A stretch of 64,000 bases of DNA from Eledone cirrhosa (lineage: Eukaryota), in assembly GCA_964016885.1 (NCBI GenBank), contig CAXHJY010001629.1, positions 53,362-117,361 of the forward strand, read 5' to 3'. The first letter of the stretch is position 1. Each line of letters opens with the position of its first letter. Positions 7,976-64,000 of the stretch are shown here, piece by piece. Below the pieces are notes generated by a model, which saw nothing but the letters and a program-made list of their open reading frames with translations, made no database searches and was not told where the DNA came from. Made by a program: the position numbers and the translations under genes.

Positions 7976-8015
7976 TCCCTTGATGATGGGTTTTTAAACC
8001 TGAAAATATTTGGGA
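7976..8015 (+). ncRNA. Minimal type I hammerhead motif, probably inactive (C3U)
   Basis: tccc-TTGATGA-tgggtttttaaacct-GAAA-atat-TT-ggga; stems I and II pair and stem III is palindromic. Confidence 0.55.
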
Positions 8016-8161
8016 TCGTTAAATTTGCTGAGGTAAGATTCTTTTGTTATCTTAGCAATTTAACGATCTTCATAACACATTGTGTTGGTCTTCAAAATTT
8101 AAATTTGTGTTTCCTATTAAACAATGCTTCAAGCAAGCTATAAAACTCTGTTATATATACA

Positions 8162-8790
8162 TCTATACTATAAAGCTGACGGCCGTATGTAGGTAACAAA
8201 CTTTCCGCCAAACCGCTGGACCAAACAGCACCAAATTTGCACCATAGATGTAATTTTTTCCAAGTAAAAAAGTGAGGGTATTTTTGTCTACTGAATTTTG
8301 CTAAAAGATTAAAGACATTATTTAAATATTCACTTCTTTAAAATTTCAAATGTTAACACTTCCGGTCATACGTCATTCCTCACCTTTTCTTATGACGTCG
8401 CACAACATTCCTCTCTTTTTCATAGTCTGTCTTTTTAGATAGATAAATAGTTATAACGTAACGCCTTTATAATATGTATCTGTATGTCTGGCTGTCTGCA
8501 TTAGATAACGTTTTTCGAAATATTTACTTCTGCGTTCACAGACGGATTTCTTTAGTTTCAGAAGACCCCGTTAAGGGTGAAAGCAGCGATTCTTTGCTTA
8601 AAATTTAATCTGTTATTTTAATATATATATTCGTGTACAGATATTTTTGCATACACAAAAACAAAAACCTATTTATTTCACGAAAGCACAGACGGCTTAT
8701 CGTCATTGTTACTGTTCGAGATTAGAGGACCACAGTCTTTCCAAGATCTGAGAACCATCAATGGCAATCAATGTTCCACTTACCGTTTGA
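8162..8790 (+). mobile_element. Helitron 5' end plus RepHel coding remnant
   Basis: A|TCTATACTATAAAG start; LLLFEIRGPQSFQDLRTINGNQCSTYR matches the RepHel motif. Internal segments are shared (inverted) with 15318-15390 and 49091-49205. Confidence 0.75.
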
Positions 8791-10768
8791 CGAATGATGA
8801 TTATAAAGACAAGACGAGCTTTAAAGGAGGTGGAAGTGGAGCCAAAATAGGTGAAGGAATTGGTGTCAGTTATAACTTTACATTCGTAAATTAAGTTTTT
8901 ATCAAGACAATGGTTGTTGAGAGCACATTTATTTTTAGCAGGGCAATTGCAATTGCGATTAGAGAGATTATTAACGAGTGACCTAGTGTTATCTATAGAA
9001 GGAATTGGATTGGAGAAGTTATTGGCGATAGGAATAATAGTTTCTTGATTTAGAGTGGGATTAAGAACATTTAGCGAAGTTGTGTTTGACGTTGTATTTG
9101 GGTTTGCAGAAATTAGCCTAGAGTTTACAATGACGTCGGGAGTACTATTACTATTATTATGATATTCATTGAATTTGATAACAGCATCAAACTAGCTAAT
9201 TTCTTGGATGTATCTCTTAATCTTGACACTGGCCTAAAACAATGAGAACCTAAATTATGTTAATTTTAAATCTAACCACCCTACCAATATTAAGAATGCC
9301 ATAGTTAGTAATATTGGAAAAAGAATATCTAACCTATCTTCTAATAAAAACATCTTCGATGCTAACGCCAATTACTATAATAACGCTCTTTCTAAAGCCG
9401 GCTATCCTGATAAAATCAAATATAATAAAGAAACAAATTCTAGAAGATCTTACAGTAGAATAATTAATCATGATCATTCCAATAACTTTAATAAAAGACC
9501 TAGATACAAAAACACAATCTGGTATAATGCTCCTTTCTCCATCTCTATTAATAATAATATTCCTAAATTATTCTTTAGTGCCTTAAATAAATGCTTCTCT
9601 CCCTTACATATCTATAGTAAAATATTTAACAAACACACTATAAAATTTTCCTATTCGACATCCTCCAACATTATCTCTAAACACAACAATAAGATAGTAA
9701 ATACTAAATCTCTTCCATCCAACACTGAATATCATAATAATAGTAATAGTACTCCCGACGTCATTGTAAACTCTAGGCTAATTTCTGCAAACCCAAATAC
9801 AACGTCAAACACAACTTCGCTAAATGTTCTTAATCCCATTCTAAATCAAGAAACTATTATTCCTATCGCCAATAACTTCTCCAATCCAATTCCTTCTATA
9901 GATAACACTAGGTCACTCGTTAATAATCTCTCTAATCGCAATTGCAATTGCCCTGCTAAAAATAAATGTCCTCTCAACAACCATTGTCTTGATAAAAACT
10001 TAATTTACGAATGTAAAGTTATAACTGACACCAATTCCTTCACCTATTTTGGCTCCACTTCCACCTCCTTTAAAGCTCGTCTTTTAAATATAAACTTAAA
10101 AGAACCAACACGGCTCTCTCAGAACTCATATGGTCCTTGAAAGACAAAAATATTAAATATAACATCTCTTGGAAAAGGGTTTCCTCTGCTTCTTCATACT
10201 TGAACAGTTCTCTATCCAAGACTTGCAATCTCTGTCTAAATGAAAAATTTACCATTATTTCTAATTTAGATTCTATAATAAATAGACGCACTGACTTGTT
10301 TTCTATCTGCTTGCATAAATTCCACAGAATTTTCCATAAAGTATACAGCTAATATGATAAACTTTATCAATTCAGAATCCTTTTCTCAAAGGCACACACA
10401 CACACACACATATATATATATATATATATATATATATATATATATATATATATATATATATATATATATACTTCTTTAAAAATATACCCATCTTTCTACC
10501 TTATTTCAAAGTTATTTATTATATTTATTATATTCTACATCACTCCTAATTTCTAACCCCTAATCTGTACCTTTTCTCACTGTGCCTAACATAGAAACAA
10601 TTATTACACAATACACCATATTCTTACTTCATATCACCTTGAAAAAATCATTCGTAGACGTTAGATTATTCATCCTCTATTCATTATTTTTTTCTCCTTT
10701 TCATCTAACCTATTCATGCTCATCTCACAATATATCCTTACTTACATTACTTCTGTTTTTTTAATAAT

Positions 10769-10938
10769 ACATATCAACATTTTCTTTCCATCGCACATAT
10801 TATTAAACCCTTAAATATTATTCTTAATACATATTAACATTTTCTTTCCATCGCACATATTATTAAACCCTTAAATATTATTCTTAGTACATATTAACAA
10901 TTTCTTTTCATCGCACATATTATTAAACCCTTCAATAT
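10769..10938 (+). repeat. 60-bp tandem repeat, about 3 copies, in the PLE 3' UTR
   Basis: ttcttt(c/t)catcgcacatattattaaaccctt recurs with period 60. Confidence 0.9.
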
Positions 10939-11300
10939 ACAAACCTTAACTTTACATTATTTTTCTCTTCGTTAATTTTCAAATTCTTTTAATTTATACA
11001 TTATCTTCCAACGGTTTTTTCAACCTCTCTATGTAAAACAATACATTTTTCTCAGTTATAAAAGCTATCTCTCTCTCTCTATCACCCATCTCTCCTCCTA
11101 TCTCATCCTTCCTCACTATACTCCTCCCCCTCCACTTTTTACTCTCATCTCCTCCTCTTTTTCATCCTTTCCAACCTCACCCCCCCCCCTCTCAAAATTT
11201 TTCCCCCCAATATCACACATCAATCTAAAACTACTTTTCATATGTTGATTTAAAACTGCACTATCCACAAGTGTTTTTTAACCTTCATATCATGTCCTCC

Positions 11301-11371
11301 TATTTTATCTGATGAAAACACAAATGTTATTGCATGATGATATTTGTTTTTGAAATGCGCATAATAAAATA
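11301..11371 (+). ncRNA. Type I hammerhead ribozyme (PLE pLTR)
   Basis: tattttat-CTGATGA-[stem II hairpin]-GAAA-tgcgca-TA-ataaaata; 8-bp stem I and palindromic stem III. Confidence 0.85.
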
Positions 11372-61454: not shown

Positions 61455-61622
61455 AGTATTGGTAGAGCGTCAGACACCATGCTTTGCAGTATTGTTATGG
61501 TCCTTTGCACTCTAAGTTCAAATCCTGCCGAGGTTAACTTCGACTTTCATACTTACTAATTCGATAAAATAAAGTACCAGTAATGGACTGCCGTAATGGA
61601 TTTGTGCCGAAAAATAGAAACA
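61455..61622 (+). mobile_element. Diverged SINE copy (another fragment at 59391-59443)
   Basis: gttcaaatcc B box and gataaaataaagtaccag core. Confidence 0.8.
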
Positions 61623-62174
61623 CTATTAATGTGCAATAAGAGCAAAATATAACGACATTGCTCAATTATTTTATCTAATGTTGTAATAACACAAGGAAAT
61701 GTTGTTTGTGTATTTTTTTTTTATATTTGCTCATAGGCTTTTACAATTTCGCTCAGCCAACAACTATTAAAAAGTGAGTTGCTTAAGATAACAATTTAAT
61801 CACAAATTGTTGCTATCTTTTAATACACTCCAACAAGTCATCAAATTATGTACAATAAAAACATCTTATTAATTTGCTCAGGGAATATAAAGAAAATGTA
61901 TATACACTGATAATTGCAATTGTATGTAAATATTTTGTTTTTGTATTGTTTATTTTATGTTTTCTATTATGTATATTGATTTAATATTGATTGTTTTTTG
62001 TAGTTGTTTATATTAAAAGTCTGAAAATATTTTTATACATCTTACACTAATATTTATAAGATAATTTATAATAACAATTACATAATCTAATTACATTACA
62101 ACGATAATTTATTATTAATATATATCCTGTTTAACTAGAGTTATTACAAGCGTTGCCTTAAAAAAATATTAAAC

Positions 62175-63127
62175 TAGACATGAAAAATGCGCAAGCTCAA
62201 AAGTGCCACAGAATGTTATAATAAACCTTCAAAAGTGTGGGACTAGAGTTGTTGCTAAAAAATATTGTAATCATTATATATCGTACATTCTGTGGCATCC
62301 TTTATAAAAATAGCTTAAACCAACGAAGCCTTTATTTTTACGCTATTTCACTTAGTTAATTCTTAGAGTGTAACATATAAAAATAAATACATCTATGTTT
62401 AATGTAATAACAGCTATAAATAATTACGTAATATTATTATCATATACTCATAGTAACAAAATAATTGTGTTGAAAATTAATATGATGCTTATATGAACGA
62501 TCAAATCTATAATGATAATTTCTTAAATATACTAATAGTAAAATAATTTAGTTATCTATTGTTACATTTTCATAGAACTATAATATTAACAATCGTATTG
62601 CATTATCAAATTTTTATCACTACAAACTTTCATATTGGAATTACCTTAAGCCACTTATTATTACTTCGCTTTCGTACTTTTACAGCTGTAGATATTGCGC
62701 TGTATCTTATATCTAATATCAATATCTCATGGTAATTTGCATGCAGTGTAAAATAGGTTTATTAATAACTTTAATATGAAATGTATTATACAGGGCTGCG
62801 GAGTCGGCCAAAAATTGACTGGCTCCAACTCAGGATCCGATACTCCATTATTTCCTAAATTTCAGCTCCGCAGCTCTGTTATTATATTAATTAATTTACT
62901 TTATAGTTGTAAATCATATTTTTATATGTTACACTCTAAGAATTAACTAAGTGAAATAGCGTAAAAATAAAGGCTTCGTTGGTTTAAGCTATTTTTATAA
63001 AGGATGCCACAGAATGTACGATATATAATGATTACAATATTTTTTAGCAACAACTCTAGTCCCACACTTTTGAAGGTTTATTATAACATTCTGTGGCACT
63101 TTTGAGCTTGCGCATTTTTCATGTCTA
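62175..63127. repeat. 211-bp apparently perfect inverted repeat with 531-bp spacer
   Basis: 62175-62385 is the reverse complement of 62917-63127. Confidence 0.93.
62791..62878. mobile_element. hAT-like MITE, 88 bp
   Basis: TIR cagggctgcggag / ctccgcagctctg; 8-bp flanks gtattata and ttattata. Confidence 0.7.
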
Positions 63128-63796
63128 TATATATATATATATATATATATATATATATATATATATGCATCTATATATATATATATATATATATATATAT
63201 GCATATATATATATATATATATATATATGCATATATATATATATATATATATATATATATATATATATATATATATATGCATATATATATATATATATAT
63301 ATATATATATATATATACATATATGCATATATATATATATATATATATATATATGCATATATATATATATATATATATATATATATATATATATATATAT
63401 ATATATGCATATATATATATATATATATATGCATATATATATATATATATATATATATATATATATATATATATATATATATATATGCATATATATATAT
63501 ATATATATATATATATATATATATATATATATATATATATATATATATATATATATATGCATATATATATATATATATATATATATATATATATATATAT
63601 GCATATATATATATATATATATATATATATGCATATATATATATATATATATATATATATATATGCATATATATATATATATATATATATATATATATGC
63701 ATATATATATGTATATATATATATATATATATATATATGCATATATATATATATATATATATATATGCATATATATATATATATATATATGCATAT
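63126..63796. repeat. (TA)n array with TGCA interruptions
   Basis: Direct reading. Confidence 0.97.
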
Positions 63797-63799
63797 AAA

Positions 63800-64000
63800 A
63801 TATTAAAAAAATAATAATGAATAAAACAATGAAACAGTTCCTTATATTAAACAAAAAAAGTTCATTATTTAACGATCGTTTCTAGGATATATATGTGTTA
63901 GAATTGGCATGCATATTCAACAGATCTATGTACAAAATTATACAAAATTATACAAACTATCAAAATTAAATATACATACCAACACATATATATGCCGTCT
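63800..64000 (-). mobile_element. PLE pLTR end (third copy of the 22208/27720 terminus)
   Basis: Near-identical to 22204-22400. Confidence 0.9.

What the first reader, a model, noticed from the sequence alone, without database searches (positions are those of the whole stretch)
7976..64000. Hammerhead-ribozyme-dense region: more than a dozen minimal type I HHRs from several unrelated families
Seen: CTGANGA/GAAA cores at 7976(+), 11301(+), 12384(-), 18219(+), 21709(-), 21914(+), 22261(-), 27515(+), 29063(+), 32475(+), 36092(-), 36668(+), 42434(-) and 55725(+). Partial or degenerate copies are at about 30050, 35410, 52263 and 63861. Most have a pairing stem I and a palindromic stem III (tgcgca, tatata, cgatcg, caattg, tgca). 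The 12384/29063/32475 family has the core and stem II but no clear stem I. Established: PLE terminal repeats carry minimal type I HHRs thought to cleave as dimers through palindromic stem III. Inference: read-through transcripts on either strand could be cut repeatedly, and same-family copies could trans-activate each other.
Basis: partly seen in the sequence, partly recalled or inferred. Interest (0 to 1): 0.75.

Follow-up and report, generated by a model that had tools for sequence, protein, structure and literature searches.

The report
Penelope retroelement ends carrying hammerhead ribozymes
The self-cutting-RNA motifs in this animal DNA are real and sit at the tail ends of known Penelope-type jumping genes, which fill the whole genome (an estimated one motif per 10,000 bases), so the region is only about twice as rich as average, and the copies were likely made from uncut RNAs that would begin at the elements' own promoter.

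Summary
The motifs are real; the 'special region' is not. My descriptor finds 14 complete type I hammerheads plus 3 lacking stem I in 64 kb (shuffles: mean 0.19). However, 59 evenly placed chromosomal tiles hold 57 in 590 kb (97 per Mb, about 290,000 genome-wide), so the window is only about 2.3-fold richer. Six of 15 families sit at the 3' end of Penelope-like ORFs: four Hydra-clade (RW, DKT, CxCX5C), two Neptune/Nematis-type. Nine are unlinked and may be non-coding parasites. Stems and the C3-G8/U3-A8 core pair covary. Repeated cutting of read-through RNA is unsupported: copies in close inverted pairs are predicted to be locked in duplex, and a published Penelope hammerhead needs its protein. 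Added here: in four families, 5' ends of copies pile up at the A of an initiator-like motif upstream of the cut site, not at it (family B, 20 of 40 arms), suggesting copies of uncut promoter-driven transcripts. Cleavage and transcription are untested. This scan reported the same system, scale, long stems and C-C mismatch on other DNA of this genome. Known class, unusual scale.

The parts
7976..8015 (+). Family I hammerhead, core damaged (U3.G8; family core U3-A8), H17=U
9238..10346 (+). Hydra-clade PLE ORF remnant (thumb, CxCX5C linker, GIY-YIG-type EN) of family B; inverted 5'-truncated copy at 8802-9171
   Evidence: intact relative L226
11301..11371 (+). Family B complete hammerhead, stem I 8 bp, stem III AUGCGCAU, H17 at 11363, at the element's 3' end before AATAAA and (TA)n
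   Evidence: 22,846 tag matches
12384..12413 (-). Family A hammerhead core, stem I 1 bp
15745..15912 (-). Family C 3' end with 3' half of hammerhead (GAAA changed), downstream of the ORF at 16396-17388
16396..17388 (-). Hydra-clade PLE ORF remnant (EN) of family C
18219..18284 (+). Family C complete hammerhead, H17 at 18276
   Evidence: 14,645 tag matches
21709..21774 (-). Family C complete hammerhead, arm of a head-to-head pair; predicted trapped in duplex
21914..21979 (+). Family C complete hammerhead, other arm of the pair
22261..22413 (-). Family D complete hammerhead with 114-nt stem II domain, GUU site; inverted arm of the 22215-27713 insertion
24469..24966 (+). Hydra-clade EN remnant of family D
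27515..27667 (+). Family D complete hammerhead, stem I 10 bp, 114-nt stem II domain with C.C mismatch, H17=U at 27657; Inr-like A at 27518
   Evidence: 14,832 tag matches
27730..28362 (-). Family K unit (about 630 nt, no ORF linked) with complete hammerhead at 27979-28060, 7-bp stem III; retrozyme-like candidate
   Evidence: head-to-tail joint 28353 to 27730 in run X1 contigs
29061..29092 (+). Family A hammerhead core, stem I 2 bp; 3' end of a Neptune/Nematis-type PLE (copy truncated at 28356)
30055..30196 (-). Family D' hammerhead, U3-A8 core, long stem II, one stem III mismatch; 3' pLTR of a degraded full-length Hydra-clade PLE
31688..31765 (+). Family L complete hammerhead with 8-bp stem III (missed by reader), inside a fold-back
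32474..32503 (+). Family A hammerhead core, no stem I pair
32861..35165 (-). Broken Hydra-clade ORF of family D' (RWR, DKT, CxCX5C)
35237..35444 (-). 5' pLTR of family D' with 3' half of the hammerhead, interrupted by a SINE-like repeat
36092..36130 (-). Family E complete hammerhead (U.U at stem II base, GUU site); head-to-head partner at 36146(+) lacks U16.1-stem I
   Evidence: 7,095 tag matches
36667..36712 (+). Family F complete hammerhead, stem III AUGCAU, GUC-type site AUC
37321..37358 (+). Family M complete hammerhead with U3-A8 core (missed by reader); damaged inverted arm at 37247(-)
42434..42492 (-). Family G complete hammerhead
50795..51710 (+). Broken Neptune/Nematis-type PLE ORF (RT AMG..PSYANI, C-X3-C-X2-C linker, EN)
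52255..52300 (+). Degenerate hammerhead (GAAA changed) 541 nt after that ORF
53323..53391 (+). Family J complete hammerhead (missed by reader); the inverted tail 53250-53337 extends stem I to 15 bp
   Evidence: 33,893 tag matches
55725..55762 (+). Family H complete hammerhead, classic 4-bp stem II, GUC site
63815..64000 (-). Family D 3' half, cut by the contig end

Best explanation
These hammerhead motifs are the 3' terminal-repeat (pLTR) ends of many Penelope-like retroelement families and likely of their non-coding parasites, copied across the whole genome, and each would act in its element's own RNA rather than on host read-through transcripts. Shown: six families end PLE ORFs, ends abut (TA)n, many insertions are head-to-head pairs (which doubles the count), and density is about 97 per Mb everywhere. 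Inferred: reverse transcription starts 30-150 nt 3' of the motif, so even heavily 5'-truncated copies keep it. Inferred: the pLTR is the promoter; 5' ends of copies pile up at an initiator-like A 44-141 nt before the cut, so many short copies are full-length copies of an uncut pLTR transcript, with the ribozyme in the 5' leader. Predicted: cleavage is slow, needs a partner RNA (palindromic stem III) or the element's protein, and would remove the capped leader, acting as a dose-dependent brake or processing step for the element; most genomic copies are inert passengers.
For: ORF linkage at a constant distance: B 11 hits, C 14, D 7, D' 2 (Hydra), A 18, 52263 1 (Neptune-type) (overlapping loci not removed); intact 821-aa Hydra-type ORF 1.07 kb before the family B motif (L226); full pLTR-ORF-pLTR relic at 35444-29878. 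Genome-wide: 57 complete in 590 kb; 97,342 tag matches for seven families, backward controls 0-1. Covariation in family D copies picked only by a 3' tag: stem I positions 1-4 paired in 46 of 46, with U-A to C-G and A-U to G-C changes, stem II A-U/G-C/U-A changes, and the U3-A8 core in the divergent lineage; U3-A8 also in families A (L277), J (L204), I. Fixed 5' ends: B 20 of 40 truncated arms within 3 nt of -123 (about 14 insertions; uniform expectation 0.9); D -141, J -44, C about -138, each the A of a BBCABW motif that occurs 3-5 times per 325 nt; runs of two other organisms show loose ends at the same base, and run X1 depth doubles there. Only one alignment among the seven reference sets (250 alignments) began at the base after the cut. 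Literature: internal Inr/DPE promoter in the Penelope pLTR (PMC2377424); protein-assisted cleavage, uncut RNA as insertion substrate (PMC11167929).
Against: Nine of 15 families (E, F, G, H, I, J, K, L, M) show no ORF at a constant distance in my loci (most loci reach only 1.5 kb). The 5'-end peak in family B sits on a palindrome (CATATG), so annealing of two cDNA ends could make it without a promoter; in family C only 2 of 18 copies end within about 6 nt of the Inr A by the strict test, and 6 of 17 family D junctions are SINE-adjacent and were set aside. B, C and D are relatives, so not independent. Tag-selected loci cannot contain arms that start at the cut, except as partners or in tiles. 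No transcript end, cleavage product or activity was observed.
Confidence: 0.8

Rival explanations
1. Most motifs belong to non-LTR retrozymes: short non-coding units that are cut to monomers, circularised and re-inserted by PLE enzymes.
For: Nine families have no linked ORF; family K is a ~630-nt unit with a head-to-tail joint in DNA contigs and a stem III stable as a monomer; retrozymes are described as PLE derivatives (10.64898/2026.07.22.740005).
Against: The abundant families B, C, D and A carry ORFs; no tandem array of hammerhead units in the window; 5' ends do not pile up at the cut site. Likely true for a minority such as K.
Confidence: 0.12
2. The region is a functional ribozyme cluster: read-through transcripts of either strand are cut many times and same-family copies activate each other in trans.
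For: 14 complete motifs on both strands; window 2.3-fold above average (P about 0.01); 53338, 55728 and 36674 keep stem I in 200-nt context; dimer helices are favourable.
Against: Same density class genome-wide; window is a transposon graveyard at the end of a 117-kb unplaced contig with no host gene seen among the ORFs; 11 of 14 lose stem I in longer context and inverted pairs are duplex-trapped; low in-vitro activity even as dimers (PMC4209133); 4 of 14 have H17=U (a slow site, recalled).
Confidence: 0.06
3. The motifs are chance matches in AT-rich, microsatellite-rich DNA.
For: Bare core pairs occur 4.4 times per shuffled window; Rfam finds none at gathering score.
Against: 14 versus 0.19 expected with stems required; 0 in 834 kb reversed; covariation; thousands of copies per family.
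Confidence: 0.01

Closest known systems
Minimal type I hammerheads in PLE pseudo-LTRs (Cervera and de la Pena 2014, PMC4209133; parts 1-2 of 4 read)
   Same: Type I topology, palindromic short helix III, extra nucleotide after A9, U3-A8 variant, many families per genome, mostly single truncated copies, opposite-strand pairs 100-700 bp apart; a 2-bp helix I as in D. virilis Penelope.
   Different: Estimated 290,000 motifs here versus about 9,000 (Xenopus) and 4,000 (coelacanth) there (different descriptors); G10.1-C11.1 in only 12 of 57 tile motifs; stem II domain over 40 nt in 15 of 57; H17=U in 13 of 57.
Hydra clade of C-terminal EN+ PLEs, including Hydra-1_Obim of Octopus bimaculoides (Craig et al. 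2021, PMC8557442; section 11, passages, supplement rows read)
   Same: RW, DKT, CxCX5C, CxxC and CxH motifs, no CCHH, (TA)n targets, hammerhead near the 3' end, inverted 5'-truncated arm.
   Different: Families B, C, D, D' have other hammerhead sequences than the Hydra-1_Obim row shown, tens of thousands of copies, 3' UTRs of 1-2.7 kb; compared by eye, not by alignment.
Neptune/Nematis-type PLEs (C-terminal GIY-YIG with CX2-5CxxC linker and CCHH)
   Same: Family A and the 50795 element show the linker and CCHH-type EN before a hammerhead-bearing 3' end.
   Different: Family A keeps only 1-2 bp of stem I in all 25 copies shown; Neptune versus Nematis not resolved.
Poseidon PAc of Anolis (Frangieh et al. 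2024, PMC11167929; parts 1-2 of 4 read)
   Same: Two fixed 3' ends per family (for example B +51/+134-150, J +28/+110), AT-rich targets, genomic copies span the cut site.
   Different: Different clade; here the motif lies before, not across, the ORF start as far as seen; no biochemistry here.
Animal non-LTR retrozymes (PMC7229834, passages; bioRxiv 10.64898/2026.07.22.740005, part 1 of 5)
   Same: Non-coding hammerhead units; family K fits in size and head-to-tail joint.
   Different: Window copies are dispersed monomers or inverted pairs, not tandem arrays; circles untested.

Membership tests
Type I hammerhead ribozyme | Core C3-U-G-A-N-G8-A9 / G12-A-A-A15.1 / U16.1-H17 (or U3-A8) | tested here: met
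   14 complete plus 3 without stem I; damaged at 7980, 36146, 37247, 52263, 15912
Type I hammerhead ribozyme | Stems I, II, III around the core, open at stem I | tested here: met
   14 of 17 calls; family A has 0-2 bp stem I
Type I hammerhead ribozyme | Compensatory changes among copies | tested here: met
   family D, 46 copies chosen by 3' tag only; few independent events, mostly between subfamilies
Type I hammerhead ribozyme | Rfam hammerhead model at gathering score | tested here: not met
   0 in window; best tested 31.7 of 34 bits; none at 36674
Type I hammerhead ribozyme | Site-specific self-cleavage | not testable with these tools
   needs in-vitro assay
PLE minimal hammerhead | Short palindromic stem III that is stable only as a dimer | tested here: met
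   11 of 14 complete motifs; 28054, 31694, 53338 are stable as monomers
PLE minimal hammerhead | G10.1-C11.1 closing pair of stem II | tested here: inconclusive
   first/last base of stem II region G-C in 12 of 57, U.U in 14, A-U in 14, C.A in 7; U.U has precedent (PMC3088659)
PLE minimal hammerhead | Located in the pLTR of a PLE | tested here: inconclusive
   met for 6 of 15 families; not shown for 9
Hydra-clade PLE (families B, C, D, D') | RWK-like, DKT, CxCX5C, CxxC and CxH motifs, no CCHH, C-terminal EN | tested here: met
   read in L226, L230, L231 and window ORFs against PMC8557442 section 11; D shown only by its EN part; Pfam gives no hit
Hydra-clade PLE (families B, C, D, D') | Phylogenetic placement with described Hydra RTs | not tested
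   reference proteins were seen in the supplement but not aligned
Hydra-clade PLE (families B, C, D, D') | (TA)n target and inverted 5'-truncated arm | tested here: met
Neptune/Nematis PLE (family A, 52263) | RT followed by CX2-5CxxC linker and CCHH-type GIY-YIG | tested here: met
   frames of L216, L218; copies are broken
Non-LTR retrozyme (family K) | Tandem non-coding units, one hammerhead each | tested here: inconclusive
   monomer in window and L069; head-to-tail joint in X1 contigs
Non-LTR retrozyme (family K) | Circular RNA | not testable with these tools
   no run on record as RNA

The most novel reading that the evidence does not exclude
This genome is a natural archive of how Penelope-type hammerheads work: about 290,000 motifs, with short copies that record the capped start of the pLTR transcript to the base, show that the ribozyme sits in the 5' leader and was uncut when copied, and point to cleavage as an off-switch that decapitates the element's mRNA when copies or protein are abundant; in family D the oversized stem II may even hold the leader intron, so that splicing remodels the ribozyme.
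Probability: 0.3. Interest if true: 0.62.

Novelty: new member of a known kind. Interest (0 to 1): 0.36.

Why it matters
The role of hammerheads in Penelope-like elements is still open (PMC8557442). The class is known, but a genome with roughly one motif per 10 kb, most invisible to Rfam thresholds, gives thousands of natural variants and breakpoints with which to test where transcripts start, whether templates are cut, and which variants (U3-A8, U.U or C.A at the stem II base, GUU sites, 2-bp stem I, 114-nt stem II) are active. It also means many introns in this animal must contain such motifs. The window itself has no special status.

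Tried and rejected
Special local cluster: rejected. Family A as a fixed 860-nt non-autonomous element: my first reading was wrong; copies run on into a Neptune-type ORF. Distal rescue of family A stem I: no conserved pairing seen by eye. Intron inside family D stem II (GTATGT/GTAAGT/GTAGGT ... YTGAT ... CATAG): the 3 junction hits were inversions and 2 internal deletions were not precise excisions; no such joint in laid contigs. 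Not disproved, as PLEs retain introns, but the same bases also pair in the stem and the intron would be only 42-54 nt; a longer acceptor was not searched. Pile-up of 5' ends at the cut site: not seen. Expression: no RNA holder listed. Rfam E-value scan of the whole window showed microsatellite matches in the 150 rows listed; 287 rows were not shown. The repeat finder was swamped by (TA)n. Pfam does not recognise the Hydra ORFs. Lunse, Weinberg and Breaker 2017 could not be read; it may already describe several of these variants, and its figure of about 150,000 variants is recalled only (one search did not confirm it). Permuted hammerheads at Naiad ends were not searched.

Full report
Setting. 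The window is the last 64 kb of a 117-kb contig (G000:C1656) of a 3.0-Gb genome. It is 34.5% GC, rich in (TA)n, and its long ORFs are retroelement remnants: RTE-like with PHD finger, CR1-like, REL-type, and Penelope-like (clade labels from motifs, partly recalled). An octopus-like animal is a guess from composition and from earlier scan notes; I did not determine it.

Observation. A first descriptor gave 7-8 motifs against 0.04 in 200 shuffles. The final descriptor (C3-G8 or U3-A8 core, stem II up to 200 nt, palindromic or hairpin stem III, stem I) gives 14 complete motifs and 3 with stem I of 0-2 bp, against mean 0.19 and max 2 in 150 shuffles and 0 complete in 834 kb read backwards. Four complete motifs were missed (28054, 31694, 37325, 53338). 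30050 is a whole U3-A8 motif. Rfam finds none at gathering score; one of two sites tested alone hits Hammerhead_1 just below it.

Density is genome-wide. 59 evenly placed 10-kb tiles on 25 large contigs hold 57 complete motifs in 590 kb: 91 per Mb on C1-4, 92 on C5-10, 113 on C11-26; 13 tiles of small contigs hold 7 in 130 kb and the 50 kb upstream of the window 4. Bootstrap: 97 per Mb (69-125), or 208,000-376,000 in the genome; the window's 14 has P about 0.01 before allowing for its selection. Tiles were not length-weighted. Exact tags for the 3' halves give B 22,846, C 14,645, D 14,832, J 33,893, E 7,095, A 3,632 and I 399 (one mismatch), controls 0-1; tags include truncated copies (46 of 62 family D copies had the 5' core). 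Published counts I saw: about 9,000 in Xenopus and 4,000 in coelacanth (PMC4209133), over 6,000 in Acropora and up to 120,000 retrozyme copies in axolotl (PMC7229834); descriptors differ. A 2026 octopus repeat annotation has no occurrence of 'hammerhead' or 'ribozyme' (PMC13282606); searches for hammerhead with octopus or cephalopod listed no paper whose title or abstract start is on this (listings only).

What carries them. Family B at 11309 follows an EN remnant (9238-10346) and precedes AATAAA and (TA)n; locus L226 holds an intact 821-aa ORF with RW, DKT, CxCX5C, CxxC and CxH motifs 1.07 kb before the same motif and an inverted arm upstream, the Hydra-clade signature of PMC8557442 section 11. 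Families C and D link likewise, and 35444-29878 is a degraded pLTR-ORF-pLTR element of family D'. Family A ends a Neptune/Nematis-type element about 1.35 kb after its EN, as does 52263. Nine families have no ORF at a constant distance in my loci. Family K is a ~630-nt unit with a head-to-tail joint in run X1, so retrozyme-like.

Covariation. In 46 family D copies chosen only by a 3' tag, stem I positions 1-4 pair in all, with double changes in the divergent lineage, which also has U3-A8; stem II has A-U/G-C and U-A/G-C changes and a C.C mismatch in 46 of 46. These are few independent events. U3-A8 also appears within families A and J and in 8 of 57 tile motifs. Family A keeps 1-2 bp of stem I in all 25 copies shown; D. 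virilis Penelope has a 2-bp helix I.

Would read-through RNA be cut? Stem III is unstable alone and favourable as a dimer in 11 of 14 motifs; 28054, 31694 and 53338 are stable alone. With 200-nt flanks only 36674, 53338 and 55728 keep stem I above 0.5, and the close inverted pairs have the core fully paired (equilibrium folding without tertiary contacts or co-transcriptional effects). Minimal PLE hammerheads cleave weakly even as dimers; the Anolis one needs its protein, is dispensable for insertion in vitro and left no ends in RNA-seq.

Ends of copies. 3' ends fall at two fixed points per family, as in PAc. 5' ends do not pile up at the cut: 1 of 250 alignments starts there, the fold-back at 53337, which stem I microhomology explains as well (tag-selected loci under-sample such arms). 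They pile up upstream: family B 20 of 40 truncated arms within 3 nt of -123 (about 14 insertions; 19 of 59 copies ran beyond the 330 nt examined), D at -141, J at -44, C more loosely near -138. Each is the A of a BBCABW initiator-like word (consensus recalled) found 3-5 times per 325 nt. By a strict test foreign sequence begins within about 6 nt of that A in B 15 of 37, D 17 of 41 (6 beside a SINE, set aside), J 5 of 20, C 2 of 18; a G precedes the A in 13 of the 33 junctions left after setting those six aside, where about 5 are expected, but some are templated by the other arm (counted by eye). Runs of organisms B and C have loose ends at the family B base. D. virilis Penelope has an internal Inr/DPE promoter and a leader intron in its pLTR (PMC2377424). 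I infer that short copies are complete copies of uncut pLTR transcripts. The alternative is cDNA annealing at the CATATG palindrome or at ATT targets. One paper search for this link listed 12 of 24 papers, none read for it beyond PMC2377424 and PMC8557442, so I do not claim it is unpublished.

Earlier notes. This scan already reported the genome-wide scale, Hydra link, long stem II, C-C mismatch and two-armed insertions on other DNA; I tested scale, linkage, mismatch and ends myself. None of the eight notes shown for the promoter query mentions the Inr-aligned 5' ends.

Verdict. Real motifs, known class (hammerheads of PLE pLTRs), new families at unusual scale; no special region; activity untested. 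The bioRxiv supplements were closed and Lunse et al. 2017 was not held; both may bear on the novelty of the variants.

Noticed in passing
L226:5812-5835 and window 27280-29180, run X4: Run X4 (kind not on record, same organism, other sample) shows A>G and T>C changes far more often than run X1 (e.g. 5835 T>C 485 of 4454 versus 314 of 2.0 million). If X4 is RNA this looks like A-to-I editing on both strands, as fold-back duplexes would give; its contigs also span the cut site. Alleles are not excluded.
   Followed up: partly
window 27549-27602; family D and D' copies: Intron-like signals inside stem II (donor GTATGT/GTAAGT/GTAGGT about 25-30 nt after the Inr A, YTGAT, CATAG); family C has GTATGT/GTACGT about 42 nt after its Inr A. 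No spliced copy found.
   Followed up: partly
window 53250-53391: Fold-back whose inverted arm starts at the base after the cut site and extends stem I to 15 bp; best candidate for a monomer-active copy.
   Followed up: partly
window 37138-37436: Family M fold-back; the damaged arm differs in the core by two A-to-G changes (TTGGAAG versus TTGAAAA), possibly editing scars.
   Followed up: no
window 19303-20444, 41547-42075, 2753-3014: Naiad-like RT remnants (label from recalled motifs) with no canonical hammerhead found downstream.
   Followed up: no
window 12639-12838, 30621-30840, 35440-35645, 37928-38569, 43493-43744, 46384-46502, 49416-49560, 61455-61628: SINE-like repeat in about ten copies whose end abuts ATTATT; six family D copies have it exactly at the Inr A.
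   Followed up: partly
window 465-1529, 1634-2445, 40238-41454, 44488-46258, 47031-49114, 55812-56774: Other non-LTR remnants: RTE-like RT with PHD finger, CR1-like RTs, and an element with a C-terminal restriction-like endonuclease motif.
   Followed up: no
runs X5 and X6: Families B, D, A and K have near-identical pieces in runs of two other organisms, so the expansion is not private to this genome.
   Followed up: partly
tiles L050-L108: At least ten further hammerhead families absent from the window, some with 50-95-nt stem II or long palindromic stem III.
   Followed up: no
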